From: Candidatus Saccharimonadota bacterium
GTDB lineage: Bacteria; Patescibacteriota; Saccharimonadia; Saccharimonadales; JACDFO01
Assembly (NCBI GenBank): GCA_013815785.1
Contig: JACDFO010000002.1
Location: forward strand, 1 to 47,231
DNA: 47,231 nt
Direction: 5' to 3'
A program made the translations under genes and the position numbers. The notes under the pieces are model-generated. The model did not search any database and had not been told where the DNA came from. It saw only the letters and a program-made list of their open reading frames with translations. How positions within the stretch are numbered: position 1 is the first letter of the stretch; each line of letters begins with the position of its first letter. Below are positions 22,407-47,231 of this stretch, piece after piece.

Positions 22407-22784
22407 TCAGTTATAGAGCGTCTGATCAACGAGAGCTACCAAATCTTGTGGCGCTAAACTGGATTTCAAAACGAAGCTATGAGCACCGAGACCAAGCATT
22501 TCCGCCTCTATTTTGCTGTCTAGTAGGTTGCTATAGACGACTATTTTTGTATTCGGATAATCGTCTAAGTCGACCTTTCTCATGAATTCTTTACCATCCA
22601 TGACTGGCATGAATATGTCGAGCAATACCATGTCTGGCCGTAAGGCCTTTAACCGTTTCAATCCTTCGAGACCGTTATTGGCGGTATGGACTTCATAGCC
22701 CTTAGAAGAAAGGATAATCTGATAAACGTCTTGAAGTACTTTTTCATCTTCAACTATAAGTATGGAAAGTATGGACTTACTCAC
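22407..22784 (-). CDS. Single-domain response regulator (receiver only)
   Basis: 125 aa. ILIVEDE, phospho-acceptor context VLLDIFMPVMDG, and VVYSN..K. No output domain. Confidence 0.9.
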   Translation of the reverse strand: MSKSILSILIVEDEKVLQDVYQIILSSKGYEVHTANNGLEGLKRLKALRPDMVLLDIFMPVMDGKEFMRKVDLDDYPNTKIVVYSNLLDSKIEAEMLGLGAHSFVLKSSLAPQDLVALVDQTLYN

Positions 22785-25213: not shown

Positions 25214-25407
25214 TATCCTATTGTACCCTGTCTGAAAAGTGTCAAGATACATTAAAGTTGTCAAAAGTGCTACCAACCAAATAGTACATAAATGTCTAAC
25301 GCAATTGGTACAGCTTAGTGCACGAAGTTAGAACCAACTTCATTAAAATAATTGATGATACTGCCGAATAGATTTTTGTTCGTCTTACTTGTGAAATGTA
25401 CCTCTAC

Positions 25408-26508
25408 TCAAGTTAAAGGCACTAACACTTTAAATTCCGTACCAACATTTAATTCACTCCGGTAATTAATGGTGCCCCCAATCTTATCAAGAAGGATTTT
25501 TACCATATAAAGACCCAAGCCTGTTCCTTCAGTGAATTCCTGCATAGCGTTTTCCGCTCTTGAAAACTGTTCAAACAGGTAAGGTTGATACTCTTTCGGT
25601 ATGCCGATTCCTGTATCGCTGATGGAAATCAAAGCTTTTTTATTCATCAGCTTAACAGTTACATTTATAGAACCTTTTATTGGGGTATATTGAACCGCAT
25701 TAACTATGAGATTAGAAAAAATTTCATGAAATATCGATGTATCGGTGTTTATAACAGGTAGATTTCCATCCAAACTTAATGAATATCCTAGTTTTTTCTC
25801 AACCAATCTTGGTTCAAGTTCTTTATGTATTTGTTTAAATATTTCACTTATCCTAATATCACTTTTTTGAATAAGCCTGGTGGCACTTTGCACTCGAGCT
25901 ATATTTAAAAGCCCTTCAACTAATGCAATCATTCGCTCGGATGAACTGACAAGGGTATCTGCTAATTGTTGCTGCTCTTTATTTAGTCCACCTGCATATT
26001 CATTGCTTAACATATGTGCGTAAGTCATGATCACTGTCATGGGAGTCCTAAGCTGGTGTGAAGCGAGATTAATAAAATTATTTTTCATAAGAGATAATTT
26101 ATATTCACTCGTAATATTCTGTATTAGATATACGATTTGCTCGCTGTTTGGAAGTATTTGTTTAGAAACCCTAAAGAATAAATGGTTGTTTTCTTTATTG
26201 GTCCACTCATAAACTGCCTCTTCGCCTTTTAGCGTTTCTGTCACATTATTCGCAATATTAATGTATTCGGGTAAAGGACTCTCTGTTTGTTTGATGGGAA
26301 ATGCTTCATTAAATGACTGCCCGAGTAAGAATATACGTTGAGTTGCCAATAAATTAGCAAAGTAATTATTGCTGAAAATAATATTACCTAACTTGTCAAC
26401 AACACATACGGCATCATTAATACTGCCTATCACAAGGTCCATCCATCCTAAGATTCTATGTACTTCTAATAATTCTTCAGAGAAGAATTTATCTTTACTT
26501 ACGCTCAT
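25408..26508 (-). CDS. PAS-domain sensor histidine kinase
   Basis: 366 aa. H-box ASHQLRTPMTVI plus NAVQYTP, DTGIGI and GTGLGLY. The start overlaps the upstream PAS gene by 14 nt. Confidence 0.9.
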   Translation of the reverse strand: MSVSKDKFFSEELLEVHRILGWMDLVIGSINDAVCVVDKLGNIIFSNNYFANLLATQRIFLLGQSFNEAFPIKQTESPLPEYINIANNVTETLKGEEAVYEWTNKENNHLFFRVSKQILPNSEQIVYLIQNITSEYKLSLMKNNFINLASHQLRTPMTVIMTYAHMLSNEYAGGLNKEQQQLADTLVSSSERMIALVEGLLNIARVQSATRLIQKSDIRISEIFKQIHKELEPRLVEKKLGYSLSLDGNLPVINTDTSIFHEIFSNLIVNAVQYTPIKGSINVTVKLMNKKALISISDTGIGIPKEYQPYLFEQFSRAENAMQEFTEGTGLGLYMVKILLDKIGGTINYRSELNVGTEFKVLVPLT

Positions 26509-26869
26509 CTAGTGGGTAATCAATTATTGCAGCAAATCTCCAGGATGAATCCTTTTTATCACCTAATATGTAATGATTTGAGCTTTTTACTGTGCCATCT
26601 TTATATAAAACACTGAGAGACAAGGGTTTTCCTAGCAATTCTGTTGTTTCGGTTGCTAAGTATCTTGCAAAGCCTACTGTATGGGCGTTTCTCATATGTG
26701 TTGGCATAATTTCCGTTACTGATTTTCCTATTAGGTCTTCCGCAGTCCATCCATATTCTTCAGTAAAAGCGTCGTTAATATATGTGAATATACTTTGTTG
26801 GTCGATTGCCACTACGGGTAAATCTTCTAATGCAATTAATTCATCATATGTAGCAGGGTATTGAGACAT
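26495..26869 (-). CDS. Stand-alone PAS-domain protein
   Basis: 124 aa. FTYINDAFTEEYGWTAEDLIGKSVTEIMP is a typical PAS core. It is translationally coupled to the downstream kinase. Confidence 0.8.
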   Translation of the reverse strand: MSQYPATYDELIALEDLPVVAIDQQSIFTYINDAFTEEYGWTAEDLIGKSVTEIMPTHMRNAHTVGFARYLATETTELLGKPLSLSVLYKDGTVKSSNHYILGDKKDSSWRFAAIIDYPLDERK

Positions 26870-26980
26870 GCAACCTCCATATTTGTCATCTTACTTTATC
26901 ATAATTTACTCCTAAAATTTACCCCAAAATATACCATGTATCTGGTCCAGTTTTTGATCAACTGATGTTAGATTGTTACA

Positions 26981-27116
26981 CCCGGACGGATTCGACTCAC
27001 TTTCAGCGAGCCCGTCGCAATATCTTTGCAAACCAGTTTGCAAGAGTTGACTTCCTTGCGAATTGCCACCGGCAATTCTCACACCGACCCTTGGCGTCGA
27101 CAGTTCGAATCCGTCC
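26981..27116. ncRNA. Multi-hairpin structured element closed by a 12-bp helix made of tRNA T-arm sequence (strand unknown)
   Basis: GGACGGATTCGA (26984-26995) is the exact reverse complement of TCGAATCCGTCC (27105-27116). Inside lie perfect or near-perfect hairpins at 27025-27044 and 27060-27078, plus shorter ones. CCCGGACGGATTCGA (26981-26995) duplicates tRNA-Arg 27163-27177. Confidence 0.35.
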
Positions 27117-27124
27117 AGACCACG

Positions 27125-27147
27125 AAAAAACCGAGCACTAGGCTCGG
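27125..27147 (-). terminator. Intrinsic terminator downstream of tRNA-Arg(TCG)
   Basis: CCGAGC-ACTAG-GCTCGG hairpin (27131-27147), followed on the minus strand by TTTTTT. Confidence 0.7.
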
Positions 27148-27155
27148 CTCTTTCG

Positions 27156-27232
27156 TGGTACGCCCGGACGGATTCGAACCGCCGACCCTCTGTTCCGAAG
27201 ACAGATGCTCTATCCAGCTGAGCTACGGGCGC
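27156..27232 (-). tRNA. tRNA-Arg (anticodon TCG), CCA encoded
   Basis: The reverse complement GCGCCCG TA GCTC AGCTGGATA GAGC A TCTGT CTTCGGA ACAGA GGGTC GGCGG TTCGAAT CCGTC CGGGCGT A CCA forms a cloverleaf. Confidence 0.9.
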
Positions 27233-27396
27233 GTATTTGCGGTATTAGTGTATCATCTTATCAGATGAGCCATGGTATCAAAATCCAGAGTCTTATTGCT
27301 CGTTTTCATCTGTTGAACCAATAGTATAGAACAAAATTTTCTCTCTATCAGTTTACTTACTTAATCACATTCGCCCGAAGTTGCTACAATGGTGTT

Positions 27397-30246
27397 ATGG
27401 CAAACGAATTCGACACGTCTACAAATAAGTCTATACCGAAGAACGTAACAACTACGTCTACTCAAGACATAATCGATTACAAGCATCTGAGCGAACAAAG
27501 GTTTAAGCTCATTATTGAACATGTCCCGGTACTTATTTCGTACGTCGATGCCGGACATCGGTATCGTTTTGTAAACAAACAATACGAAGCTTGGTTTGGG
27601 CATAGTACAGAGGATATCCAAGGTAAGCACTTACGAGAAGTACTGGGTGCGAAGGCCTATAAAGCTTTAAAGCCTCATATTGATAGTGTACTTGCTGGTA
27701 ACACAATAAGTTTTGAGACAAACGTTCCATACAAAGGGGCCGGCAACCGATATGTCAGCGCCAATTACATACCCCACATAGAAGACAACAAAGTAGTCGG
27801 CTTTTTCGTGATGGTTATGGATTTATCTGATCGCAAAAAAATCGAAGAAAATCTTAGATATCGGACGGCCTTACTCGAGGCACAGAGCGAAGCAACACCT
27901 GACGGCATATTGATTGTCGACGCAAGAGGAAAAATGCTGTCATTCAATAAGCGTTTTATACAAATGTGGAAAATTCCAAAGCACATTAGTGGTGCCAACG
28001 ATGACTCGGCGGCGCTTAAATACGCTATGACACAGCTAGTGGACCCAAAGGGCTTTATAGACAGAGTGAACTATTTATACGCTCACCAGGATGAGTCGAG
28101 TCACGAGGAAGTTTACTTTAAGGATGGCCGAGTGTTTGACAGGTATGGTTTGCCGGTTGAAGGCGATGATGGGCAGTACTATGGATGGGCATGGCATTTT
28201 CGTGACATTACTACACAGAAACGAGCAGAGGAAAAAATTATCCTTAGAGAAGAGCAGCTGAGGGTTGCCCTTAAGGCGTCACGGATGGGCGTTTGGGAAT
28301 GGGATAGCCAGAACCGAAAGTTGACGTGGTCAAACGAAGTAAAGCGATTGTACGGTTTAAAGATAAGCGAATCAATTACGTACGAAAAATATATCAGCTT
28401 GCTTCATCCTGATGATCAGCCAAGGATGCAAAAAACAATTGCAAATGCCCAAAAGACGGGAAGTAAATATACTATTGAGCATCGTGTTGTTTGGCCGGAT
28501 GGTAGTATCCACTGGCTTCTTGGGAAGGGTCAGGCATTTTTGGAAAATGGCAAGATAGTGCGGATGGCAGGTATATCGCTAGACATCGATGATCGAAAAA
28601 AGGCCGAAGAATTATACCAGAGCCAAAACGAGTATCTTATAGCTTTGAATGAGACGGCTCTTGAAATTGCTAGAGGTTTGGGAGGTCAATTATCAATACT
28701 AAAAATCATTCTAAGCCGAGCTACTAAGCTGACTCAAACACCAAACGGTTATATCTACCTTATGGATGATGATAAATCTCAATTAAGTGTTCGTGTTGCC
28801 ACAGGAGTTTTTAAGCCTTACATAGGTCATGTGATTAAAAAAGGTGAGGGTTTGGCTGGTAAAGTTTGGAAAACCGGCAAACATCTTACAGTTGGGAATT
28901 ACGATATATGGACCGGGCGGCAGGCTACGTTTCCGAAAGGTATCGTTAGCGCTGCTGTCGGTTTGCCTCTGTACTCCGGTCGAAGGATAATCGGTGTCAT
29001 CGCATTAGGTTACGATACGCCGATTAAGAAATTTCCTGCTGAAAAGATAACCGCATTAAAGCGTTTGGCAGACCTTGCTTCGATTGCGTTGGACAATAGT
29101 AGGTTGTATTTAGAATCTCAAGAACGTGAGGAGCGGTTCAGGACTCTGGCAGACACCGCACCTGTATTCATATGGCTAGCAGATTCAGACAAGAACGTTT
29201 CGTACTTCAATAAAGGTTGGCTAGATTATGCAGGACGTACTTTGGAGCAAGAAATGAATTCTGGCTGGGAAGAGACTATATATCCAGCCGATCTCTTAGA
29301 GTGTAGACGTATATACGAAACATCTTTCGACGCCCGTGTACCCTTTACCCAGGAATACCGCTTAAGACGTCATGATGGGCAATTCAGGTGGATGCTAGAC
29401 ACCGGCATACCGCGGTTCTCTTCAGCTGGTGAATTTCTGGGCTATATCGGCTCGACTGTTGATATTCATGATTTAAAAAATACGACTCAGCGTACCCTGG
29501 AGCTCGAAGCCATTACAGCTAGTTTGACCGAACAGCGTGCTGAGCTAGTGACACTGAACAACGCAAAGGATGAGTTTATTTCATTGGCTTCACACCAGTT
29601 ACGCACCCCTGCAACTGGCGTAAAACAATTTATTGGCATGTTGCTGGAAAATTATTTCGGTGAGCTTACAGAAGATCAGCGCACCATGCTCGATTACGCC
29701 TACGAGAGCAACGAACGGCAGCTAGAAGTCATAAATGACCTCCTAAAAGTAGCTCAGGTGGATGCTGGCAAAGTCGTGCTTGCAAAAGAAAAGCACGATA
29801 TAAGCGATATGCTAGAAGACATCATGCAGGAACAGCGTGCTCAGTTTGCAAAACGCAAACAAAGGGTTGTGCTAGATAGACCTACAGAAGCAATCTTTGC
29901 CCCTGTCGATGTTCGACGCATGCGGATGGTTGTTGAAAACCTTATTGATAATGCTAGTAAATACACGCCAGAAGGCAAACGTATCACCGTAAGTATCAAC
30001 CAAACAAAATCAGGCGAGTTCGTAACAATTAAAGTCAAAGACGAAGGAGTAGGCATTGCAGAAGAAGATATATCCAAACTATTTCAAAAGTTTTCTCGCC
30101 TAGACAATCCGCTTTCTATCCAGGTTGGTGGTACGGGTATTGGGTTGTACTGGGCAAAAAAGATCGTTGATTTGCACGGCGGAAACATTACTATAAAGTC
30201 GATATCGGGCGAAGGTTCGACCTTTATTGTAAAGATTCCTGCTTAA
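27397..30246 (+). CDS. Multi-PAS/GAF sensor histidine kinase
   Basis: 949 aa. At least three PAS repeats, a GAF-like segment (GEGLAGKVWKTGKHL...IGVIALGY), H-box ASHQLRTPATGV, and NLIDNASKYTP, DEGVGI, GTGIGLY. Confidence 0.92.
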   Translation: MANEFDTSTNKSIPKNVTTTSTQDIIDYKHLSEQRFKLIIEHVPVLISYVDAGHRYRFVNKQYEAWFGHSTEDIQGKHLREVLGAKAYKALKPHIDSVLAGNTISFETNVPYKGAGNRYVSANYIPHIEDNKVVGFFVMVMDLSDRKKIEENLRYRTALLEAQSEATPDGILIVDARGKMLSFNKRFIQMWKIPKHISGANDDSAALKYAMTQLVDPKGFIDRVNYLYAHQDESSHEEVYFKDGRVFDRYGLPVEGDDGQYYGWAWHFRDITTQKRAEEKIILREEQLRVALKASRMGVWEWDSQNRKLTWSNEVKRLYGLKISESITYEKYISLLHPDDQPRMQKTIANAQKTGSKYTIEHRVVWPDGSIHWLLGKGQAFLENGKIVRMAGISLDIDDRKKAEELYQSQNEYLIALNETALEIARGLGGQLSILKIILSRATKLTQTPNGYIYLMDDDKSQLSVRVATGVFKPYIGHVIKKGEGLAGKVWKTGKHLTVGNYDIWTGRQATFPKGIVSAAVGLPLYSGRRIIGVIALGYDTPIKKFPAEKITALKRLADLASIALDNSRLYLESQEREERFRTLADTAPVFIWLADSDKNVSYFNKGWLDYAGRTLEQEMNSGWEETIYPADLLECRRIYETSFDARVPFTQEYRLRRHDGQFRWMLDTGIPRFSSAGEFLGYIGSTVDIHDLKNTTQRTLELEAITASLTEQRAELVTLNNAKDEFISLASHQLRTPATGVKQFIGMLLENYFGELTEDQRTMLDYAYESNERQLEVINDLLKVAQVDAGKVVLAKEKHDISDMLEDIMQEQRAQFAKRKQRVVLDRPTEAIFAPVDVRRMRMVVENLIDNASKYTPEGKRITVSINQTKSGEFVTIKVKDEGVGIAEEDISKLFQKFSRLDNPLSIQVGGTGIGLYWAKKIVDLHGGNITIKSISGEGSTFIVKIPA

Positions 30247-30313
30247 CATTTTGTAGAACTGTGTTATAAAAAAGGGAGCAACTGGAGCAAAACTAACCGA
30301 GCTGGAGGCGAGT

Positions 30314-30697
30314 GTGGCAGACATTTTGATAGTAGAAGACAATGATATGTTGAATAAAGCCTACCGGATAATTCTGGAAAAGAATGGGCACAAAGTTGAA
30401 GCAACCACGAATGGGCAAGAAGCCTTGGACGCAGTAAAGCGCTTTAAACCGAAAGTCATTCTACTCGATCTTTTAATGCCCAAAATGGGAGGCATTGAAT
30501 TTTTGCGTAAGTACGATGCCATAAAGTTAAATAAAAACGTCAAGGTCGTGGTACTAACCAATCTAGGCAAAGAAGAAAGTATTCAAGAAGCTATGGATTT
30601 AGGAGCTTACAAATACATCATCAAGGCACATTCTAGTCCTGGAGACCTTGCAAACCTTGTCAATCACCTAATTAAAAAGAACATTGTTAAAGATTAA
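30314..30697 (+). CDS. Single-domain response regulator (receiver only)
   Basis: 127 aa, GTG start with SD GGAGG. ILIVEDN, ILLDLLMPKMGG, VVVLTN..K. Confidence 0.9.
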   Translation: MADILIVEDNDMLNKAYRIILEKNGHKVEATTNGQEALDAVKRFKPKVILLDLLMPKMGGIEFLRKYDAIKLNKNVKVVVLTNLGKEESIQEAMDLGAYKYIIKAHSSPGDLANLVNHLIKKNIVKD

Positions 30698-35998: not shown

Positions 35999-36370
35999 CT
36001 AGGTAGTAAGTTCGGTTTTAACCATTTCAGCAACCTGCCGTGGAGTCATTTCTGCCTTGACTATAAAACGTCGTACACCGTTCTCGCGCAGGGTTGTAGG
36101 TGCTTCTTGTTCGCCCATATTGGTCAAGATAATAACCTTAGTATCCTTACCCCAATCTGTTTTACGCAGTTCTATCAGCATTTCATCGCCAGACATTTCG
36201 GGCATCATAAGATCTAACAAAATAATATCTGGCTGCATTTTTTCGACCAGCTCTAGGCCTAGCTTACCATTTTCTGCTGTCTCTACTTCGAAGCCTTCCG
36301 CCTCAAACTTAATGCGGTACATCTGGGAAATTGCTTGGTCGTCTTCGATAATCGCAACTTTAGTGGCCAT
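35999..36370 (-). CDS. Single-domain response regulator (receiver only)
   Basis: 123 aa. VAIIEDD, ILLDLMMPEMSG, VIILTN..K. Confidence 0.9.
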   Translation of the reverse strand: MATKVAIIEDDQAISQMYRIKFEAEGFEVETAENGKLGLELVEKMQPDIILLDLMMPEMSGDEMLIELRKTDWGKDTKVIILTNMGEQEAPTTLRENGVRRFIVKAEMTPRQVAEMVKTELTT

Positions 36371-36394
36371 ATATGTATCCTACCCTAGTATTTG

Positions 36395-36763
36395 TTACGC
36401 CGCTAGGGCTTCTTGCACTACTACTACAACCTGGGACGGTGTGTAATTAGCTTTGACCATATATCGTAAAATACCCAATTCGTATAAACCATCAGGCGCT
36501 TCGTATTCACTGATATTTGTCAGAATTATCACTTTCGTATCTTTGCCGTTCTCAGTTTTACGGTAGTTGGCTAATACTTCACTTCCGGTCATCTGGGGAA
36601 GCATAAGATCCAGAAGCACAAGGTCAAACTTGGTGGTATAGATCATATCCAGCCCTGCTTGACCATCATAAGCCACAATGCATTCATACCCAGCAGACTC
36701 AAGTTTAATCTTGTACATGTCAGCAAGTGAAATGTCATCTTCTATAATAGCTATCTTAGGCAT
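36395..36763 (-). CDS. Single-domain response regulator (receiver only)
   Basis: Start at MPKIAIIEDD (36763). VLLDLMLPQMTG, VIILTN..K. It sits in tandem with the previous receiver. Confidence 0.88.
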   Translation of the reverse strand: MPKIAIIEDDISLADMYKIKLESAGYECIVAYDGQAGLDMIYTTKFDLVLLDLMLPQMTGSEVLANYRKTENGKDTKVIILTNISEYEAPDGLYELGILRYMVKANYTPSQVVVVVQEALAA

Positions 36764-36830
36764 TATTAATCTGATTATATACTTAAAACGTAAGAGAAGA
36801 AACTCCACCACAACCATGGGTGTATAAATA

Positions 36831-36866: not shown

Positions 36867-39044
36867 ATGGAAAAAGACGAAGAATTTCCGAGGTATCAAA
36901 TACCAGGGGCGCCGGGAGAGATTGCGGCAAGCTTTCATACCCCAGAGGGAATCTTAGAAGTCGATTCATACCAAGATGAAATATTTGCAATTCTAAGACT
37001 AGCTGATGGAACTAAGAGTAGGTCCAATATTATCAAGAGCGCGGTGGAATCAGGGCTTGATGAAGAATTTACTTCTATGGTTATGGATGACTTAGAAAGG
37101 CTAGGTGTCATAGGTGACAGCAGGCAAATATCTAAACTTTTCCATATTTATACTAAAAATCCCGCTAGGTATAGCCATGATTTAAGCAACGAAGAAGTTT
37201 ATGAAATAACGTCACGACCTTATGAGGTTGAAAAAGAAGGCCAGCGCCATCAATTTTCACGTACTAGTACAGACCTTACTTCGTTATTAAGTAAACGCGA
37301 ATCAGTCAGAGGTTTTGAAAGTAGAGCTGTAGAATTAGATAAAATAAGTGAAATACTTGATGCTGCGTACTCTTTTAACATAACACCAGTACCGTCGGCG
37401 GGAGGTCTATACCCATTAAAATTATATTTACTGATCAAAGACGGGAATGAGCTACCGGCGGGATATTATCAATATGACCCCACTGATTCAGCCTTAATTT
37501 GTTTCAACGACAATTTTTCCGAAAAAAGGCTACAGTACATTTTTAACTCGGATTCACTCGTACATAACGCACAGTTACTATTTGTGATAGGCGCAGATAT
37601 GGATAGGCATTCAGAAAAATATGCTGATAGAGGCTACAGATATACTTTACTAGAAGCAGGTCATGTCGCTCAAAACATTCATTTAGCATGCACAACTCTA
37701 GATCTCGGTTCACTAGAATATGGCGGCTTCAATGATGATTTACTTCACTCCGAGTTAAACCTTGATGAGCGCATACAACCACTAATTACCATCGGTGCTG
37801 GATATAAAAATACTTTTGAAATTCAGGATTCTATATCTACTCTAGCATTGTTGGAGAAAGAACTAGTGGGTAAAAATAAACCGATAGACGAAGTATCAAT
37901 AAATTTTCCTCCAAACTCAACTAGTCCATCTTATTATCAAGCCAGCGCACACTATGTTATTCCAAATGTTAGTTATCCCGATACACATGACGATAGATAT
38001 GCTTCGGGAGCAGCGACCTCTATAGAACTTGCTAAAATTAAAGCGATAGCAGAAGCATATGAGAGATATGTAAGCGGTAAGATAAGGTTTGATATTAAAG
38101 ATAGTGCGACCAATTTACGGGGCAAATGGCTTAATCCAAATTTAATACGACCGTTAAGTTCAAGTCAGATTAATTTTATGTCCGGAATCGAACAATTCCA
38201 GGAAGATTTGTTACTGGAATGGGTAAAGGGAAGTGAACTTCATAGTAACGAAGATATTTTTGTTCCAATTGACTTAGTTTATTATCCGTTAAACGAAAAA
38301 GTTCTTCGCAGGAATCCCATCGCTCTTGCTGACTCATCCGGTGTTGCGGCGCATGTTGATAGAAATATTGCCATAGAAAAAGGATTGCTGGAACTCATAG
38401 AAAGGGATGCAATTATGAGAAATTGGTTTAAGAAAGCGCCACTCCCAAAACTTTCACAAGAATTACTAGATGAAGATATAAGCAGCCGTGTTCTAAATTT
38501 GGAAAAAAATGGCTACATTGTCGATGTACTAGATATGACCGAGCCTAACGCAAAAGCAGCCGTAATAAATGTAGTTATCAGAAACAAGGAAATGAATTAT
38601 CCGTACTTTGTTAATGGTGCTTCAGCAGCACTTAATTATCAGGATGCAATAGATAAAGCTCTTGAAGAGGCAGAACTTGGTTTGAAGTACGCACTAATCG
38701 GTGAAAAAAATGACGCAAAATCGAAAAATCACATACATTCACCTGCTGATCATGGGAATTACTACTTGCATCCAGAAAACGCAGTAAATATTTCTTGGCT
38801 ATGGAGCGGAGAAATAAAGTATCATCTACAGAATATTGACGATAGTAAAAAACTAATTGATAACTATAATCCTATAGTGATAAACTTGGAGTTACAGAGT
38901 GCTCCTTTAAATGTTGTCCGGATTATAGAGATATCACTGGTACCAATTAGCTTTGGTCTCGGTGCCGAGTATTACACGCATCCATTCAGCGGTATTTCAA
39001 ATCCGCAACAATACCAGCCCTATATTCCGCACTATTTCGCTTAA
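36867..39044 (+). CDS. Fusion protein: N-terminal winged-helix (RRE-like) region, SagB-type FMN dehydrogenase, YcaO cyclodehydratase (TOMM/azole RiPP maturase)
   Basis: The SagB/nitroreductase part includes SVRGF, PSAGGLYPLKLYLL and YRYTLLEAGHVAQN. The YcaO part includes ASGAATSIELAKIKAIAEAYERY, SSGVAAHVDRNIAIEKGLLELIERDA and a Pro-containing C-terminus YQPYIPHYFA. The ORF track begins at a TTG (36831) that is really the -35 box. Confidence 0.85.
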   Translation: MEKDEEFPRYQIPGAPGEIAASFHTPEGILEVDSYQDEIFAILRLADGTKSRSNIIKSAVESGLDEEFTSMVMDDLERLGVIGDSRQISKLFHIYTKNPARYSHDLSNEEVYEITSRPYEVEKEGQRHQFSRTSTDLTSLLSKRESVRGFESRAVELDKISEILDAAYSFNITPVPSAGGLYPLKLYLLIKDGNELPAGYYQYDPTDSALICFNDNFSEKRLQYIFNSDSLVHNAQLLFVIGADMDRHSEKYADRGYRYTLLEAGHVAQNIHLACTTLDLGSLEYGGFNDDLLHSELNLDERIQPLITIGAGYKNTFEIQDSISTLALLEKELVGKNKPIDEVSINFPPNSTSPSYYQASAHYVIPNVSYPDTHDDRYASGAATSIELAKIKAIAEAYERYVSGKIRFDIKDSATNLRGKWLNPNLIRPLSSSQINFMSGIEQFQEDLLLEWVKGSELHSNEDIFVPIDLVYYPLNEKVLRRNPIALADSSGVAAHVDRNIAIEKGLLELIERDAIMRNWFKKAPLPKLSQELLDEDISSRVLNLEKNGYIVDVLDMTEPNAKAAVINVVIRNKEMNYPYFVNGASAALNYQDAIDKALEEAELGLKYALIGEKNDAKSKNHIHSPADHGNYYLHPENAVNISWLWSGEIKYHLQNIDDSKKLIDNYNPIVINLELQSAPLNVVRIIEISLVPISFGLGAEYYTHPFSGISNPQQYQPYIPHYFA

Positions 39045-39110
39045 ACTGCCAGGCGGTTTAAGCTTGAGATAAATTTTAATCATCAACTACTTCAGGAGGA
39101 GGTGATAAAA

Positions 39111-39245
39111 ATGAAGGTACTCTCTGCAGTGTTGAAGCCATACGAAGCTACCCCCAAGGGTAGCTTCGAAAACTGCAACAACGGTTGTAGTGGCAGTGGA
39201 TCCTGCTCTCGTTGCTCAGGCAACTACGGCAACCAGTCCCACTAG
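39111..39245 (+). CDS. 44-aa RiPP precursor peptide candidate (Cys/Ser/Gly/Asn-rich core)
   Basis: Absent from the ORF track (under 60 aa). SD AGGAGGAGGTGA lies 6 nt before the ATG. Translation: MKVLSAVLKPYEATPKGSFENCNNGCSGSGSCSRCSGNYGNQSH*. It sits 66 nt downstream of the YcaO fusion gene. Confidence 0.75.
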   Translation: MKVLSAVLKPYEATPKGSFENCNNGCSGSGSCSRCSGNYGNQSH

Positions 39246-39258
39246 CACAACCCACACC

Positions 39259-39327
39259 AGCCCTGGCATATCAATTGTGTGATGATGTACGCGCGTCATC
39301 ATCAATACAATCGATTATGCCAGGGCT
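39259..39327. terminator. Long hairpin between the convergent precursor and protease genes
   Basis: AGCCCTGGCATA (39259-39270) pairs with TATGCCAGGGCT (39316-39327). An inner GATGATG/CATCATC stem is present. Confidence 0.6.
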
Positions 39328-39329: not shown

Positions 39330-39941
39330 TTACTTGAGAAGTTTTTTAGCTGATGTAGAAACTAATTTTGAGGCTGGTTTTTTTAGTGTATTACTAGCAG
39401 ACTTTGCAAGCTGATAACCATAAGAATAGCCAAACCATCTAGGTACGTCGTTATTACCTGTTATAAACCACTCTATATGGTTATATTTTTTACTATTTAA
39501 TTCTTTATTAGCCATTCCAATTTGATCTTTGGTTATTCTAACGGTTGCATATATCGGAGTTTCACCACTACACTCTTCTTCAAACAAAGTTGCAAGCCCT
39601 TCGGTTAATAACGCCTCCTTTAAGGTTTCGCCATAACCTGGGTTGCGCCATCTTACTGCATGGTGTATTTCGTGTAACATACCCATGTAAAGATTTTTTT
39701 CTAGAATTTTCTTAGATGGATCGATGTTTATGTAAACAACATTACTGGAAGGAGTATAACCTCCCACTCCAATTTCTGGGATTGTGCTAGACGGAGCATC
39801 GATTATAAGAATGTCTATTTTGTCAGCTCCTAAAACGCCAAAAGCAGTATCGGATGCTTTCTTAAAAGCATTTTCAATTACGTTTATATGCTTGTCCATT
39901 GACCCGGAAGCATTTGCTATGTGCAACTTTATACTGTTCAT
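39330..39941 (-). CDS. DUF2268-like putative Zn-dependent protease (HExxH)
   Basis: 203 aa. MLHEIHHAVRW contains HExxH, and LLTEGLATLFEE follows downstream, as in predicted DUF2268 metalloproteases. Confidence 0.65.
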   Translation of the reverse strand: MNSIKLHIANASGSMDKHINVIENAFKKASDTAFGVLGADKIDILIIDAPSSTIPEIGVGGYTPSSNVVYINIDPSKKILEKNLYMGMLHEIHHAVRWRNPGYGETLKEALLTEGLATLFEEECSGETPIYATVRITKDQIGMANKELNSKKYNHIEWFITGNNDVPRWFGYSYGYQLAKSASNTLKKPASKLVSTSAKKLLK

Positions 39942-43340: not shown

Positions 43341-44777
43341 ATGGATAACATCCCCACAACTGAAACAAAGCGTCTTTTTACTGGGCGCAAACAGCTTAAG
43401 CAAGATATTGAGCATGTAACTCAAGAGATGTATAAGCGTAACTTTGAACTGGCAGAAGCCAACAAAACACTTTCGCTTCTACGTGCAATAGATAGTATCG
43501 TACTTGAATCACACGATGAATTAGGGATACTTTGTCAAAACATAGCATCCGCGATTGCCAAGTATACTAGTTATCCGCTTGTGGCAATTCTTGTCAACCC
43601 TCCGCACAAAGACTATCTAGAGATGCTGGGGCTAGCTGGCGCAAGTGGGATTGAGGACATGTTTAAGTCATGCAAGGTTAAGGAAGACGACCATGAAACA
43701 TGGTTGGTTAGCCCTGAGCAAAAGGCGATTCTTGATATTTCTTCTGTCGATAGTCGGCTTATTGCTGAGGTGCTCTGTCTGTCGGAAGATCAGGTTAACG
43801 ATCTGAAAAATGAAAGTGGTATTAAAACAATCTTGTTATTAAAGTTGCTATCAAGACACCGTCTGGTTGGGGTGTTGGCAATCGGGTTAAATCAGGAAAA
43901 AATTGAGGTCCATGATAAACAAGAACAACTAATTGAGCGTCTATCTGAGACCGTAGGGATTGCACTCGATAGCAAATTGCTTTTTGAAGAAAATCAGCAA
44001 GTCCTGCGTCAGTTACAAAAAACGAACGAAAAATTAAAGACACTGGACGAAACGAAGGATGAGTTCATTAGCATGGCTTCTCATCAACTTCGCACGCCGT
44101 TAACTTCCGTTAAGGGCTACCTGAGCATGGTTTTAGAGGGTGATGCGGGCGAGATAGGTGAAATGCAGCGTAAACTGCTGGATCAAGCGTTTGTAAGTAG
44201 TCAGCGGATGGTTTATTTGATAGCGGATTTGTTGAACGTATCGCGTTTGCGTACGGGTAAGTTTGTTCTAGAGGCCGTGCCATCTAATTTGGCAGAAGTG
44301 GTAGAGGGGGAGATTGGCCAACTCAAGGAAACCGCCGCTGGGCGTGGACTGAAACTTACTTATGATAAACCAGCTGACTTCCCAGAACTGTACTTGGATG
44401 AAACAAAAATCCGGCAGGTAATTATGAATTTTACTGATAACGCCATTTACTACACACCTAGCGGCGGGCATATCGTGGTCAAGCTAGAAGACAAGGGTGA
44501 ATCGATTGAGTTTACCGTAACCGACGACGGCATGGGAGTCCCGAAAGTACAACAACCGAACTTATTCACCAAGTTTTATCGGGCAGATAATGCCCGCAAG
44601 GCTCGACCTGACGGTACTGGTCTTGGGCTATTCATGGCTAAGAAGGTGATTGTAGTCCAAGGAGGCAACCTATTATTTACTAGTCAAGAAGGTAAGGGCA
44701 GTACATTTGGCTTTGCATTCCCTAAATCTAAATTACAGCCACCACCCACACCAGAGCCGACTGCAACTAGTAGCTAA
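43341..44777 (+). CDS. GAF-like sensor histidine kinase with no TM segment
   Basis: 478 aa. H-box ASHQLRTPLTSV plus NFTDNAIYYTP, DDGMGV and GTGLGLF. Confidence 0.9.
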   Translation: MDNIPTTETKRLFTGRKQLKQDIEHVTQEMYKRNFELAEANKTLSLLRAIDSIVLESHDELGILCQNIASAIAKYTSYPLVAILVNPPHKDYLEMLGLAGASGIEDMFKSCKVKEDDHETWLVSPEQKAILDISSVDSRLIAEVLCLSEDQVNDLKNESGIKTILLLKLLSRHRLVGVLAIGLNQEKIEVHDKQEQLIERLSETVGIALDSKLLFEENQQVLRQLQKTNEKLKTLDETKDEFISMASHQLRTPLTSVKGYLSMVLEGDAGEIGEMQRKLLDQAFVSSQRMVYLIADLLNVSRLRTGKFVLEAVPSNLAEVVEGEIGQLKETAAGRGLKLTYDKPADFPELYLDETKIRQVIMNFTDNAIYYTPSGGHIVVKLEDKGESIEFTVTDDGMGVPKVQQPNLFTKFYRADNARKARPDGTGLGLFMAKKVIVVQGGNLLFTSQEGKGSTFGFAFPKSKLQPPPTPEPTATSS

Positions 44778-44923
44778 CAGATAGTCATGGATTAGCTCTA
44801 ACAAAGCGAGAAACTTCATTGTTTGAACAAAGCGTGCGCGATATATTCAGATTATGAATCACCGACGTTAATCTCTATCGGTGTATTGTGCTTGTGCTTT
44901 ATACATATATGTTGTGTTATGTA

Positions 44924-44952
44924 TTGACAATATTGGTATTTTGTAGTAGAAT
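44924..44952 (+). promoter_or_regulatory. Near-consensus sigma70 promoter (TTGACA, 17 nt, TAGAAT)
   Basis: TTGACA at 44924-44929, a 17-nt spacer and TAGAAT at 44947-44952. Confidence 0.6.
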
Positions 44953-44958
44953 GTATAC

Positions 44959-45060
44959 ATCCTAACCCTTGGGTGGTTGGAAGTAATCCATAGCGGATTG
45001 ATTAACAGAGGTGTAACAGATGGCAGGATAACCGGCAACGGTATTATTACTGCTTTTTTT
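44959..45060 (+). ncRNA. Candidate ~100-nt small RNA or orphan cis-regulatory leader
   Basis: Bounded by the promoter above and an intrinsic terminator: a GCAG...ACCG-GCAA-CGGT...CTGC hairpin (45023-45053) plus T7 (45054-60). It has an internal AATCC-ATAGC-GGATT hairpin. No credible ORF lies inside or immediately downstream. Confidence 0.4.
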
Positions 45061-45158
45061 ACTTCTGAAAACAATCGGTGAACCCAGGTGGTGACGGGTA
45101 CATTAACAAGTCGAATCATTTTGAAACATATTTTTTTGTAACAGGGAATCTACCCCTT

Positions 45159-45224
45159 GTGCAGACCAGCTAGTATTAGACAGCTAGTAACCCCTAGCGA
45201 CTCCTAGTATTAGACGGTCTGCAC
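45159..45224. repeat. 9-bp inverted repeat enclosing two 12-nt direct repeats (CTAGTATTAGAC)
   Basis: GTGCAGACC (45159-45167) pairs with GGTCTGCAC (45216-45224). CTAGTATTAGAC occurs at 45170-45181 and 45204-45215, 34 nt apart, with a central GCTAG/CTAGC palindrome. Confidence 0.6.
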
Positions 45225-45360
45225 ATGGTTGTAGCGTTGTGAGTAATAGATTGAGCTTTATCGCTCTCTGTTGGCTCCAGAAGCTCCCTGGTGCGGAAAG
45301 ACGCAATTCAAACTACAACTACAAAACTTTTGTGAAACCGCAAAGGTCATTTTGTTCCTT

Positions 45361-45412
45361 TTCAGAACAGCGTCTAACACACGCAAATTCGTGTGCAGAG
45401 CGCTGTTCTGAA
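45361..45412. repeat. Long two-tier hairpin
   Basis: TTCAGAACAGCG pairs with CGCTGTTCTGAA (12 bp), with an inner CACACG/CGTGTG stem (6 bp). There is no flanking T-run. Confidence 0.55.
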
Positions 45413-45539
45413 CCCCTACCTAGGCAAAGATATAAGAGTAACCCATTAACCTGGGTGTACTCGAAAAGAGCGATTCCGCTCTACAGCCAGGCCCACCATA
45501 GTCTGCGAATCTTCTGCCAAAAGCAGGGGAGGAGAAAAA

Positions 45540-46409
45540 ATGACCACCGAACACCTGGATATCCCCGAAGAGGAGCTCGACAAGATCCTCGGAGGAGCAG
45601 GCAAGGCTGCGCGCAGCGACAACGACGACGCCCTCATCAAGGACGTGGCCGGCATCGATGCGCAGATCGGGAACATCCTCTACGGCGCGTCCGTCCTCAC
45701 CCAGCGCAAGCTGGACCGGAAGGCGAAGGTCGAAGAGGAGATCCGTGATCGGCAGCACCAGCGCGAGCAGATCCGCAACCGGTTCCAGCACATGCTGAGC
45801 ACCGTCACGGACGAGCCCGCCCTGGCTCCCGCACCCGTCGCCCCCGTGGCGCTCGTGTCGGATCCGGTCAACCCGCCGTCGGCCCCCCAGCCGTCGGTTT
45901 CGTCCAGTGGTCCCGTGGTGGACGAGCCCGACGAGGATGAACTCCTCGAAGGCCTGTACACCCGTGACGAGCTCATGGAGCTGTCCGATTCGGACCTCCA
46001 GCGGCTCGCCAGCGAGTACGGGATCGCCACCGTGGTCACCGACGCAACTCGCGTCATCGTGATCGCCACGATCATCGTCCAGCAGTCGGCGTACTGTCAG
46101 TGTGAAGGCATCGAGGATCCCAACGGGACTTCGACGACTCGTGTCACGGTCATCGACCGCGTTCGCGACTCCCGGCACAACCCCCGGAGCTGGAACATCT
46201 GGCAGTGGGTCGGAGCGATCATCGGCGCCCTCATCGGCATCGTGATCTACCGGGTCACCAACGATTGGGAGCAGGACATCGAGGGCACCTGGAACAGGGT
46301 GTTCGACATGTTGCTGTTCATCGCCCTCGTGGGCCTCGGCTTCTTCGGCGGCGCCATCATCGGTGCGGCTGTGGAGGACAGGCAGGAGAACTTGCGCTCG
46401 CGCTCGTGA
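45540..46409 (+). CDS. High-GC hypothetical protein: double-glycine-type leader, Pro/Ala-rich linker, Rho_N/SAP-like helix pair, two C-terminal TMs
   Basis: 289 aa, SD GGGGAGGAG. N-terminus MTTEHLDIPEEELDKILGG, then LYTRDELMELSDSDLQRLASEYGI, and the TMs WVGAIIGALIGIVIY and LLFIALVGLGFFGGAIIGAAV. Third codon positions are strongly G/C. Confidence 0.7.
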   Translation: MTTEHLDIPEEELDKILGGAGKAARSDNDDALIKDVAGIDAQIGNILYGASVLTQRKLDRKAKVEEEIRDRQHQREQIRNRFQHMLSTVTDEPALAPAPVAPVALVSDPVNPPSAPQPSVSSSGPVVDEPDEDELLEGLYTRDELMELSDSDLQRLASEYGIATVVTDATRVIVIATIIVQQSAYCQCEGIEDPNGTSTTRVTVIDRVRDSRHNPRSWNIWQWVGAIIGALIGIVIYRVTNDWEQDIEGTWNRVFDMLLFIALVGLGFFGGAIIGAAVEDRQENLRSRS

Positions 46410-46546
46410 TCCGTTCCACGTCGAAAGGTTTGGCTATTACCCTGTGCTCACGCACAAATCGGCCCAAGTTGTCCGTTATCTTGACTGAGGCTTGCCTTAG
46501 TGAAAACGGAAGTCCCATTCCGCTTGCCCACCTTTGGAGGTGAACA

Positions 46547-47231
46547 TGAGCAAGCACACCCGCAGTTCCGGCATCAAGGCTTCGGCCGTGTTGCTAGCAG
46601 TACTCATCGCCGTCGGCCTCCTGGTCGGCAGCGGAGAGGTGTCCAACGCCAGTGATCGCACGGATGAGTCGGCAACGACACCCACCATGCCCACGGCGGA
46701 AGAAGATGCGCGTGAGTGCCCCGCAACCTGGATCATCGTTCAGGTCGATCACGAGGACAGCAACCGTTGGTTCGCCGACGGTGTCCAAGAGATCGAGGAA
46801 GCATCCACGCCTGAGGAAGCAAGGGAAGCAGCTCGTACCTGGCTCAGCCTAGTGCGTCGTGACCCCCAGCTCCTCAAGGGTGCAGCATCGTACTTCCTTG
46901 CCGGCCGTCAGGTCGACGCATCCACCTTGGTGGATGGGGAGTGCGCCAGTGAGGATGCCGAATCGCTGACAGCCGAAATCGAGCTGGCCATCGCGCAAGC
47001 GAAGGTTACGCCCGAAGAAGCTCCGGTAGATGGCACCAACTCTGGTACCGATGCTGAGGGAGACGTGACGTCTGCCAACCAGGCAGGAATCACAGGTGAT
47101 CGTGCAGCGATCAAGGTCGTGTTGAAGGACGGAACAACCGTCTGGATCATGAGCCGCTGCGGTAACCCCGTCGTTCAGGGACCGGCCCCCGTGCCCCCCG
47201 GACCGACGGATAACCCGCCGCCGCCGCCCCC
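46547..47231 (+). CDS. High-GC secreted or membrane-anchored hypothetical protein (partial; runs off the window end)
   Basis: Not in the ORF track because it has no stop. SD GGAGGTG lies 4 nt before the ATG. Translation begins MSKHTRSSGIKASAVLLAVLIAVGLLVGSGEVSNA... and ends in the Pro-rich GPAPVPPGPTDNPPPPP. Confidence 0.65.

What the first reader, a model, noticed from the sequence alone, without database searches (positions are those of the whole stretch)
39111..39245. Unannotated 44-aa precursor peptide with a microcin B17-like Gly/Ser/Cys/Asn core
The translation is MKVLSAVLKPYEATPKGSFE-NCNNGCSGSGSCSRCSGNYGNQSH. The SD AGGAGGAGG is the strongest I saw in the window. As far as I recall, the core contains NGCSG, which also occurs in the E. 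coli McbA (microcin B17) core, and both peptides end in Ser-His-type tails. Gly-Cys and Gly-Ser dipeptides are the classic sites of thiazole and oxazole formation. A long hairpin terminator follows at once, which fits a highly expressed short transcript end.
Basis: partly seen in the sequence, partly recalled or inferred. Interest (0 to 1): 0.85.

Follow-up and report, generated by a model that had tools for sequence, protein, structure and literature searches.

The report
Unannotated azole-peptide precursor gene in Saccharibacteria
A real but unannotated 44-residue gene in a Saccharibacteria genome most likely encodes the precursor of a thiazole/oxazole peptide, made by an unusual all-in-one enzyme next door that recurs across the ultra-small Patescibacteria.

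Summary
ORF 39111-39245 (+) encodes the stated 44-aa peptide. It follows the only AGGAGGAGG in the window and precedes a strong 67-nt hairpin.

It is a real gene. Loci whose neighbouring enzyme is 45-54% identical carry homologous peptides in the same position. These share the leader M-x-x-L-S-x-x-x-x-P-Y, a Cys/Gly/Ser/Asn core, the same ribosome-binding site and a hairpin. A leader model built without the window peptide recovers it (E 6e-4). The exact peptide is absent from a 15-billion-protein collection.

The upstream 725-aa protein is a three-domain fusion:
- an N-terminal leader-binding (RRE-like) winged helix
- a SagB-type FMN dehydrogenase with the catalytic Lys-Tyr pair
- a YcaO cyclodehydratase

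No E1-like or Ocin-ThiF partner was found. A DUF2268 HExxH protein is the third conserved component, seen in 29 loci and always within 1.5 kb of a fusion.

Best reading: a minimal three-gene linear azole peptide (LAP/TOMM) module, widespread in Patescibacteria. The likeness to microcin B17 is compositional only (shared NGCSG, plus GSC and GCS sites). There is no McbA homology, no McbB and no McbEFG. Chemistry, export and target are inferred. I rate it a new variant of a known kind.

The parts
36867..39044 (+). Three-domain maturase, 725 aa from ATG 36867 (a TTG at 36831 would give 737 aa). Architecture: RRE-like domain, SagB dehydrogenase, YcaO cyclodehydratase.
   Evidence: Pfam hits for Nitroreductase (1.6e-24) and YcaO (4.7e-39). 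NCBIfam SagB domain is above its cutoff and TOMM SagD is the best YcaO model. Identical to the NCBI protein 'YcaO-like family protein [Candidatus Saccharibacteria bacterium]'. AF2 model has pLDDT 88 and pTM 0.84. PDB fold matches are LynD, TruD, MusD, McbD, McbC, BmdC and ThcOx.
36867..37166 (+). N-terminal RRE-like winged-helix domain (aa 1-100), the presumed leader-peptide binding site.
   Evidence: AF2 model of the domain alone has pLDDT 89.9, with beta strands followed by three helices. The best PDB fold matches are almost all RiPP recognition elements: PbtF RRE 8T19, TruD domain 1, McbB domain 1, TigE, TbiB1, ThcOx, MccB and CteB, with TM 0.5-0.6 and a best E of 6.6e-3. Pfam gives only insignificant wHTH and PqqD hints.
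37290..37796 (+). SagB-type FMN-dependent dehydrogenase (nitroreductase fold) domain.
   Evidence: PF00881 and TIGR03605 hits. Invariant K251-Y252 aligns with the catalytic K201-Y202 of McbC.
38007..39041 (+). YcaO cyclodehydratase domain, including the conserved C-terminal tail PHYFA.
   Evidence: PF02624 and TIGR03604 hits. Invariant residues are E396, E399, E509, E512, R513, E601 and E603. The C-terminal P721-H722-x-F-A725 is nearly invariant.
39094..39102 (+). Shine-Dalgarno sequence AGGAGGAGG (continuing as GGAGGTGA), 8 nt upstream of the ATG.
   Evidence: Unique in the window. GGAGGTGA-type sites precede the homologous peptide genes in L082 (both copies) and L084, and more weakly in L081.
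39111..39245 (+). Precursor peptide gene, 44 aa plus stop. The presumed leader is aa 1-20 (39111-39170, MKVLSAVLKPYEATPKGSFE). The presumed core is aa 21-44 (39171-39242, NCNNGCSGSGSCSRCSGNYGNQSH). The leader/core boundary is inferred.
   Evidence: Translation. Homologues occupy the same position in L081, L082 (two copies), L083 and L084. 25 of 41 residues are identical to L081, 8 of them through synonymous codons. Leave-one-out leader HMM gives E 6e-4.
39260..39326 (.). Long hairpin between the convergent stop codons, a presumed bidirectional terminator.
   Evidence: -41.3 kcal/mol, z = -6.75. A hairpin is kept after the peptide gene in L081, L082 (after each copy) and L084, with both-sided base changes in the stem. 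No real Rfam family matches.
39330..39941 (-). DUF2268 protein, 203 aa, with HEIHH at residue 90. It is a putative cytoplasmic Zn-metallopeptidase and the candidate leader peptidase.
   Evidence: PF10026 at 79 bits against a cutoff of 23.6. Homologues lie within 1.5 kb of the fusion gene in 29 loci and in none of about 100 loci without a fusion. HExxH and a downstream EG(L/I)A motif are kept in 24 of 25.

Best explanation
The 44-aa ORF is the precursor peptide (A gene) of a minimal three-gene linear azol(in)e-containing peptide (LAP/TOMM) module.

Proposed mechanism:
1. The peptide is translated from a strong ribosome-binding site on a transcript that ends at the hairpin.
2. Its short leader (about 20 aa, conserved L-S-x4-P-Y motif) docks on the N-terminal RRE-like domain of the neighbouring 725-aa enzyme.
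3. The YcaO domain uses ATP to cyclodehydrate core Cys residues, and probably some Ser, to thiazolines and oxazolines. Candidate sites are G-C26-S27, G-S31-C32, C22 and C35-S36.
4. The fused SagB-type FMN dehydrogenase oxidises these to thiazoles and oxazoles.
5. The convergently encoded DUF2268 HExxH protein then removes the leader.

The enzyme carries recognition, cyclodehydration and oxidation in one chain and has no E1-like or Ocin-ThiF partner.

Shown here: the gene is real and conserved, the domain architecture and catalytic residues are present, and the three genes are linked. Inferred: every chemical step, the leader/core boundary, the protease role, and the export and biological target of the product.
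For: Gene reality:
- The same-position homologues MLKLLSATKRPYEAKQKSSASNCNNGCGNGGGSCGRCSGNCSR (L081), MSLLSVTLQPYEGLQ...NNGCGNGGGSCGRSSGNCSG and MKILSATQQPYKGLQ...CASGGSCNCCSSGNG (L082), and a 94-aa Cys-rich version (L084) lie beside enzymes 45-54% identical.
- The peptide is 61% identical to L081, with 8 synonymous codon changes.
- The leave-one-out leader HMM gives E 6e-4.
- The ribosome-binding site and hairpin are conserved.

Family level:
- More than 30 fusion loci carry an SD-preceded Cys/Gly/Ser-rich small ORF, a 36-fold enrichment with Poisson P 2e-24.
- Type-A peptides from Saccharibacteria, Taylorbacteria and Woesebacteria share a (K/R)-P-Y leader motif and a GGG(S/T)CG(K/R) core motif.

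Enzyme:
- Nitroreductase/SagB and YcaO domains.
- The K251-Y252 pair is invariant and aligns with catalytic McbC K201-Y202.
- The YcaO Glu and Arg motifs are invariant.
- The AF2 model is confident and matches LynD, TruD, McbD and McbC.
- The N-terminal domain folds like RiPP recognition elements.
- This N-domain is found almost only at the start of proteins of about 720 aa.

Module:
- DUF2268 is linked to the fusion in 29 loci and absent from about 100 control loci, with HExxH conserved.
- Outer flanks differ between loci.
Against: - Nothing here is biochemical.
- Characterised azoline-forming YcaOs normally need an E1-like or Ocin-ThiF partner. None is present in the fusion, in 38 scanned ORFs of the window or in the related loci.
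- RREs fused to dehydrogenases have been called possibly vestigial (PMC7470986).
- The RRE assignment rests on fold matches with weak E-values (best 6.6e-3), and Pfam PqqD is not significant.
- The C-terminus is PHxFA, not a Pro-terminated tail as in McbD and LynD.
- No transporter or immunity gene is conserved with the module. EamA is found only in the window.
- The precursor lies downstream of the enzyme gene.
- Distant leader types are not demonstrably homologous to the window's leader.
- The enrichment criteria were chosen after seeing examples, and some loci are redundant.
Confidence: 0.78

Rival explanations
1. The peptide is real and is a substrate of the fusion enzyme, but the chemistry or the helpers differ from the model. 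Possible forms:
- Only thiazolines form, or only Cys is modified.
- A partner protein encoded elsewhere in the genome is required.
- DUF2268 is not the leader peptidase but acts as scaffold, immunity factor or something unrelated.
For: No E1-like or Ocin-ThiF partner lies nearby. The C-terminal tail is atypical, PHxFA. Some relatives have Ser/Gly-rich cores with a single Cys (L001, L002). One DUF2268 homologue lacks the catalytic Glu (L004 has HAVSH). Only 47 kb of the genome is visible.
Against: The dehydrogenase Lys-Tyr pair is invariant across the family, which argues for oxidation to azoles. The three-gene set is the only part conserved across otherwise different contexts. HExxH plus EGLA is kept in 24 of 25 homologues.
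Confidence: 0.12
2. The peptide is a true microcin B17 family member: an McbA homologue whose product is a gyrase poison made by an McbBCD-type synthetase.
For: It shares the NGCSG pentapeptide, and both GSC and GCS tripeptides (the bis-heterocycle sites of MccB17) are present. The core is rich in Gly, Ser, Cys and Asn. McbC and McbD are among the structural and sequence matches of the enzyme.
Against: There is no detectable similarity to McbA (phmmer against PDB at E<=10; blastp at E<=1000). The leaders are unrelated. NGCSG and the Ser-His tail are not conserved in the nearest homologues. There is no McbB-like E1 protein, no McbEF ABC exporter and no McbG pentapeptide protein among the scanned ORFs. 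McbD is a weak sequence match (E 0.005), while LynD, TruD and archaeal YcaOs match better.
Confidence: 0.04
3. The ORF is a small Cys-rich protein, for example a metal-binding, metallothionein-like protein. It is not modified by the neighbouring enzyme, which acts on another substrate.
For: Cys/Gly-rich composition. No conserved exporter. YcaO enzymes can act on proteins, for example McrA or ribosomal uL16 thioamidation (title of PMC13063428).
Against: The peptides co-occur tightly and specifically with the fusion enzyme across phyla-level distances. They show the leader/core design typical of RiPPs, with a conserved N-terminal motif and a variable Cys/Ser core. An RRE-like domain sits on the enzyme. 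No TfuA gene was seen. Some relatives have only one Cys.
Confidence: 0.04
4. The ORF is a chance ORF in a non-coding spacer whose only function is the terminator hairpin.
For: The ORF is short and was not called by annotation pipelines. Other frames of this G/C-rich spacer are also partly open.
Against: There is amino-acid-level conservation with synonymous changes. The ribosome-binding site is conserved at the right spacing. The frame is preserved despite core-length changes from 38 to 94 aa. The leave-one-out HMM gives E 6e-4.
Confidence: 0.02

Closest known systems
[quoted passage not shown]
   Same: A ribosomal precursor with an N-terminal leader and a Cys/Ser-rich core. A YcaO cyclodehydratase plus a SagB-type FMN dehydrogenase with the Lys-Tyr pair. 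A short precursor gene that annotation usually misses.
   Different: There is no E1-like (C) or Ocin-ThiF-like (F) partner. A stand-alone RRE-like domain is fused in front of dehydrogenase-YcaO in one 725-aa chain. The leader is very short (about 20 aa). The linked protease candidate is DUF2268, not a CAAX/SagE-type or TldD/E protease. The host range is centred on Patescibacteria.
Microcin B17 system (McbA + McbBCD + McbEFG) of E. coli
   Same: A Gly/Ser/Cys/Asn-rich core. The shared NGCSG pentapeptide. GSC and GCS tripeptides that become fused bis-heterocycles in MccB17. McbC-like dehydrogenase chemistry, with K201-Y202 equivalents.
   Different: There is no sequence homology of the peptide or leader to McbA. 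There is no McbB, and the octameric B4C2D2 architecture is replaced by a single fusion. There is no McbEF exporter or McbG immunity protein. The poly-Gly linker is absent. The target is unknown.
ThcOx/CyaGox cyanobactin oxidase and BmdC NRPS oxidase (RRE-like domains fused to a SagB-type dehydrogenase)
   Same: An N-terminal winged-helix/RRE-like domain directly precedes the nitroreductase-fold azoline oxidase. BmdC aligns from residue 64 of the query, covering part of the N-terminal region. ThcOx is among the fold matches of the N-domain.
   Different: Those enzymes lack a YcaO domain and work with separate heterocyclases (PatD/TruD type) or an NRPS. Their RREs are thought to be vestigial. 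Here the RRE-like domain is the only recognisable peptide-binding element in the system.
Fused CD heterocyclases LynD/TruD/PatD (cyanobactins)
   Same: A single chain combines leader recognition (RRE domain 1) with the YcaO domain. These are the best whole-chain fold matches.
   Different: In LynD and TruD the RRE belongs to an E1-like domain pair and there is no dehydrogenase. Here the E1-like domain is absent and a dehydrogenase occupies the middle of the chain.

Membership tests
LAP / TOMM (thiazole/oxazole-modified peptide) biosynthetic system | YcaO-superfamily cyclodehydratase with intact ATP/Mg-binding residues | tested here: met
   PF02624 at 4.7e-39. TIGR03604 SagD family is the best YcaO model, although at 144 bits it is below its 219-bit cutoff. 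E396, E399, E509, E512, R513, E601 and E603 are invariant in 24 relatives. Fold matches are LynD, TruD, MusD and McbD.
LAP / TOMM (thiazole/oxazole-modified peptide) biosynthetic system | E1-like (C protein) or Ocin-ThiF-like (F protein) partner, separate or fused to YcaO | tested here: not met
   No such domain is present in the fusion, in 38 scanned ORFs of the 47 kb window or in the called genes of L081, L082 and L084. Only an isolated RRE-like domain is present. The rest of the genome is not visible.
LAP / TOMM (thiazole/oxazole-modified peptide) biosynthetic system | SagB-type FMN dehydrogenase with the catalytic Lys-Tyr motif | tested here: met
   TIGR03605 at 120 bits against a cutoff of 78.4. 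Invariant K251-Y252 aligns with McbC K201-Y202, which the literature describes as catalytic (PMC6395948).
LAP / TOMM (thiazole/oxazole-modified peptide) biosynthetic system | Adjacent precursor peptide with a leader and a Cys/Ser/Thr-rich core | tested here: met
LAP / TOMM (thiazole/oxazole-modified peptide) biosynthetic system | Azol(in)e heterocycles actually present in the mature product | not testable with these tools
   Needs mass spectrometry or NMR of the expressed product.
LAP / TOMM (thiazole/oxazole-modified peptide) biosynthetic system | Pro-rich C-terminal tail of the D protein (PxPxP-type, C-terminal Pro in the active site) | tested here: not met
   The family consensus is P721-H722-x-F-A725 and ends in Ala. 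McbD and LynD insert a C-terminal Pro (PMC6395948). A conserved tail at the very C-terminus is present, but it is a variant.
Microcin B17 family | Precursor homologous to McbA | tested here: not met
   phmmer against PDB, which includes McbA 6GOS_A, finds nothing at E<=10. blastp against McbA gives no alignment at E<=1000. Only the NGCSG pentapeptide is shared.
Microcin B17 family | McbB/McbC/McbD as separate subunits, with the McbEF exporter and McbG immunity protein | tested here: not met
   A single fusion enzyme is present. No E1-like, ABC-transporter or pentapeptide-repeat protein was found among the scanned ORFs.
Microcin B17 family | DNA gyrase poisoning by the mature peptide | not testable with these tools
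   Needs the purified product and gyrase cleavage or supercoiling assays.
RiPP recognition element (PqqD-like RRE) | Winged helix-turn-helix fold (three-stranded sheet plus three helices) similar to known RREs | tested here: met
   AF2 domain model with pLDDT 89.9. Top PDB matches are PbtF RRE, TruD domain 1, McbB domain 1, TigE, TbiB1, ThcOx, MccB and CteB, with TM 0.5-0.6 and rmsd about 3 A. E-values are weak, the best being 6.6e-3.
RiPP recognition element (PqqD-like RRE) | Sequence-profile membership (Pfam PqqD PF05402) and demonstrated leader binding | tested here: inconclusive
   PqqD scores only E 0.17 in one relative and HTH_47 scores 0.07-0.17. Binding cannot be tested here.
DUF2268 (PF10026) predicted Zn-dependent protease | Profile match above the gathering score and an HExxH motif | tested here: met
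   79.1 bits against a cutoff of 23.6. HE(I/L/F/M/Y)xH and a downstream EG(L/I)A motif are kept in 24 of 25 fusion-linked homologues. Protease activity is itself only predicted for this family, and there is no solved relative.

The most novel reading that the evidence does not exclude
Patescibacteria (CPR), including Saccharibacteria, widely carry a self-sufficient single-polypeptide azole synthetase (RRE, dehydrogenase and YcaO in one chain) that needs no E1-like or Ocin-ThiF partner. It works with a dedicated DUF2268 leader peptidase on leaders of about 20 aa, giving a previously undescribed LAP subclass. Its retention in genomes of about 1 Mb would imply a role in the episymbiotic lifestyle, such as host killing or manipulation or competitor exclusion, possibly through MccB17-like bis-heterocycles.
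Probability: 0.45. Interest if true: 0.75.

Novelty: new variant of a known kind. Interest (0 to 1): 0.62.

Why it matters
CPR/Patescibacteria genomes are tiny and are usually reported to have few or no biosynthetic gene clusters. One survey read here found none in its Patescibacteria MAGs (PMC11613949). A three-gene azole-peptide module that recurs across Saccharibacteria, Taylorbacteria, Woesebacteria and other lineages points to a conserved chemical tool in these episymbionts, and its precursors are invisible to standard annotation.

For RiPP enzymology, an enzyme that joins recognition, cyclodehydration and oxidation in one 725-aa chain would be the most compact azole synthetase known. It has no E1-like partner and acts on a leader of about 20 aa. 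It would make directly testable whether an RRE fused to a dehydrogenase can be functional rather than vestigial. It would also give DUF2268 its first functional context.

Tried and rejected
- Protein-database search with the 44-aa peptide found no candidates. This search is limited by its word index.
- Pfam and NCBIfam scans of the peptide found nothing, and PADLOC found nothing for any of the three genes.
- Pfam scans of six N-terminal domains gave only insignificant wHTH and PqqD hints, so I predicted the structure instead.
- A PDB sequence search with the C-terminal 65 aa, meant to compare the tail with LynD and McbD, gave only spurious hits.
- A PDB sequence search with DUF2268 found no relative.
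- A leader HMM built from the close clade does not retrieve the more distant leader types B (KKFSWK) and C (KKLQIKVTE). I therefore claim homology only within the close clade and a looser motif-level family for type A.
- EamA transporter, PLP decarboxylase, the 279-aa membrane protein and the response regulators were tested as module members. They were rejected because they are not conserved with the fusion.
- Seven literature searches (YcaO+Patescibacteria, Saccharibacteria+azole peptide, YcaO fusion+CPR, YcaO/SagB/RRE, DUF2268, Patescibacteria BGC/LAP, YcaO+FMN dehydrogenase+E1-like) found no description of this architecture.
- The Chem Rev 2017 YcaO review is not held, so prior mention there cannot be excluded.
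- An Rfam scan of the spacer gave only a sub-threshold miRNA-hairpin artefact.
- The simple terminator scan did not list the long hairpin.
Full report
**1. The observation**

The window is a 47,231-nt contig of a Candidatus Saccharibacteria bacterium. The enzyme next to the finding is identical to an NCBI protein of that name, on a contig of exactly this length.

AGGAGGAGG lies at 39094-39102, 8 nt upstream, and is the only copy in the window. An in-frame GTG at 39102 overlaps this site, so ATG 39111 is the likely start.

Fifteen nt after the stop codon, a 67-nt near-perfect hairpin (39260-39326) folds at -41.3 kcal/mol. Its z-score is -6.75 and none of 200 shuffles fold as well. It fills the space up to the stop codon (39330) of a convergent gene. 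It has no clean U-run, and the simple terminator scan missed it, so 'terminator' is an inference from position. Rfam has nothing real there.

The recalled McbA sequence is exactly PDB 6GOS chain A. It does contain NGCSG and does end GSHI.

**2. Is it a gene?**

The exact peptide, in either the 44-aa or the 47-aa version, is not in a collection of about 15 billion predicted proteins that does contain its annotated neighbour. It is therefore unannotated.

I fetched loci that encode relatives of the neighbouring enzyme. The closest have enzymes 45-54% identical, and each carries a small ORF in the same position directly downstream:
- L081: MLKLLSATKRPYEAKQKSSASNCNNGCGNGGGSCGRCSGNCSR
- L082 and L083: MSLLSVTLQPYEGLQKGATNAGGNSNNGCGNGGGSCGRSSGNCSG
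- L082, second copy: MKILSATQQPYKGLQAATSTSTTCASGGSCNCCSSGNG
- L084: a 94-aa version beginning MKALSVKTRPYGAS..., with about two dozen Cys

The frame stays open although the length varies from 38 to 94 aa. A GGAGGTGA-type ribosome-binding site precedes each gene and a hairpin follows each, with compensatory changes in the stem.

The window peptide shares 25 of 41 aligned residues with L081. Eight of these are encoded by different synonymous codons. That makes the peptide more conserved than the enzyme, which is 54% identical.

A leader-only HMM built from the four other peptides, without the window's, ranks the window's frame first among non-seed hits. This is out of 27,390 stop-to-stop frames in 1.36 Mb, at E 6e-4.

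**3. Surroundings**

The upstream gene (36867-39044, 725 aa) carries a SagB-type nitroreductase domain and a YcaO domain in one chain.

An AlphaFold2 model built on 24 relatives is confident, with pLDDT 88 and pTM 0.84. It matches LynD, TruD, MusD, archaeal YcaOs, McbD, McbC, BmdC and ThcOx.

Conserved residues:
- K251-Y252 are invariant in the family. In a profile alignment they fall on McbC K201-Y202, the catalytic pair for azoline oxidation (PMC6395948).
- The YcaO glutamate and arginine motifs (E396, E399, E509, E512, R513, E601, E603) are invariant.
- The C-terminus is a conserved PHxFA rather than a Pro-terminated tail.

The first 100 residues, modelled alone, reach pLDDT 89.9 and show strands followed by three helices. 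Their best PDB matches are almost all RiPP recognition elements: PbtF, TruD domain 1, McbB domain 1, TigE, TbiB1, ThcOx, MccB and CteB. TM is 0.5-0.6 and rmsd about 3 A, but E-values are weak, the best being 6.6e-3. Pfam does not recognise the domain.

A profile of this N-domain finds 340 cluster representatives among 1.84 billion proteins. Most of the best 150 are 700-750 aa, the domain is at the N-terminus in nearly every listed protein, and the shorter hits are probably cut at contig ends. The three-domain fusion is therefore a coherent family.

No E1-like or Ocin-ThiF protein, ABC transporter or pentapeptide-repeat protein was found among 38 ORFs scanned in the window. The window otherwise holds housekeeping and two-component genes. 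None was found in the called genes of the related loci either.

**4. The module**

The convergent gene 39330-39941 is a DUF2268 protein with an HEIHH motif.

It hits none of about 100 loci that lack a full fusion. Orientation varies between loci. HExxH and a downstream EG(L/I)A motif are kept in 24 of 25 homologues.

The EamA transporter, the PLP decarboxylase and the membrane protein downstream are not conserved with the fusion. Outer flanks differ between loci: ribosomal protein genes in L082, Peptidase_S11 in L081, MurD and response regulators in the window and L084.

The conserved unit is therefore the fusion enzyme, the small peptide gene or genes, and DUF2268.

**5. The wider peptide family**

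More than 30 fusion loci carry an SD-preceded small ORF with a Cys/Gly/Ser-rich tail.

Under one fixed filter there are 20 such ORFs in the 168 kb flanking fusions and 4 in the remaining 1,196 kb. That is about 36-fold enrichment, Poisson P 2e-24. The filter was designed after seeing examples, and a few loci are redundant.

The leaders fall into three types:
- Type A has ...V-x-(V/I)-(K/R)-P-Y-(E/K/G). It occurs in the window clade, other Saccharibacteria, Taylorbacteria and Woesebacteria. It often comes with a core motif (G/A)C-x-GGG(S/T)CG(K/R).
- Type B has KKFSWK(I/V)T.
- Type C has KKLQIKVTE(R/K)KL.

The close-clade leader HMM does not reach the distant types. I therefore claim homology only within the close clade, a motif-level family for type A, and analogy for types B and C. 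Leader type tracks enzyme similarity, as expected if leader and recognition domain co-evolve.

A different precursor class, with CCCCCC runs and long helical leaders, accompanies non-CPR fusions in L077, L124 and L160.

**6. Mechanism (inferred)**

1. The leader binds the N-terminal RRE-like domain.
2. The YcaO domain cyclodehydrates Cys, and probably some Ser, using ATP.
3. The fused dehydrogenase oxidises azolines to azoles.
4. DUF2268 removes the leader.

Conserved heterocyclisable sites in the close clade are G-C26, G-S31-C32 and (C/S)35-S36. GSC and GCS are the tripeptides that give fused bis-heterocycles in microcin B17 (established knowledge).

Export, immunity and target are unknown. 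The absence of a conserved transporter is a gap in the model, and it weakens the case for a secreted antibiotic.

**7. Comparison with what is known**

The system works like a LAP/TOMM pathway and meets three of that class's defining features: YcaO, a SagB dehydrogenase with Lys-Tyr, and a Cys/Ser-rich precursor. It fails the C/F-partner criterion that Cox et al. used to define TOMM clusters (PMC4603692).

RREs fused to dehydrogenases are known but were considered possibly vestigial (PMC7470986). Here such a domain is the only recognisable peptide-binding element.

It is not a member of the microcin B17 family:
- There is no McbA homology.
- There is no McbB and no McbEFG.
- The NGCSG pentapeptide and the Ser-His tail are not conserved even in the nearest relatives.

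I found no paper describing this fusion, its link to DUF2268, or azole peptides in Patescibacteria. The library is incomplete and the main YcaO review was not available. A genome-mining specialist would recognise the enzyme as TOMM-like at once, so this is a new variant of a known kind, not a new category.

**8. Verdict**

- The interpretation as an unannotated azole-RiPP precursor is supported.
- The 'microcin B17-like' label holds for composition only.
- Confidence is about 0.78 that the peptide is a genuine precursor processed by the adjacent fusion into an azol(in)e peptide.
- Confidence is about 0.5 for the DUF2268 leader-peptidase role.
- Confidence is about 0.45 that the enzyme is fully partner-independent and defines a CPR-wide LAP subclass.
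- Interest is 0.62.

Noticed in passing
window 45000-47231: GC content jumps to 0.54-0.61 against about 0.42 in the rest of the contig, after an AT-rich gap at 44780-45540. The 289-aa ORF at 45540-46409 has no Pfam hit, and there is no tRNA at the junction. This could be foreign (host-like, high-GC) DNA or a chimeric contig end.
   Followed up: partly
window 16247-17767 (-): This 506-aa protein has an XRE-type HTH domain (aa 9-63) fused to a MurA/EPSP-synthase-fold enzyme, an unusual fusion for a cell-wall enzyme.
   Followed up: no
window 22781-30697, 35999-36817 and 43341-44777: Two-component genes are dense around the module. There are four PAS-rich histidine kinases and three receiver-only response regulators. 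Two of the regulators lie directly upstream of the fusion gene, and one of them (RR1) plus MurD keep that position in L084. A regulatory link to the peptide module is possible.
   Followed up: partly
L082 8250-8387 and 8636-8752: Two tandem precursor genes have different cores. Each is followed by its own copy of the same hairpin, which indicates duplication of a peptide-plus-terminator unit.
   Followed up: partly
L084 8195-8479: The orthologous precursor is 94 aa and carries about two dozen Cys in CxxC-like repeats. This is a much larger core on the same leader.
   Followed up: no
L004 8316-9029: The DUF2268 homologue here has HAVSH instead of HExxH, so the catalytic Glu is lost, yet it still sits between the fusion gene and a precursor gene.
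   Followed up: no
L077 4251-4589, L124 2413-2682, L160 2549-2818: Non-CPR SagB-YcaO fusion loci (Chloroflexi and soil metagenomes) carry a different precursor class. These have long helical leaders and cores with runs of 5-7 consecutive Cys.
   Followed up: no
window 5075-6073 (+) and 15496-16176 (-): Two sortase genes lie in one 47 kb stretch of a reduced genome.
   Followed up: no
L002 (contig JBOHNX010000001.1, 556 kb): One Saccharimonadales genome encodes two different fusion enzymes on the same contig, P0036 and P0058, 37% and 36% identical to the window's enzyme. Only the P0036 locus was inspected.
   Followed up: no
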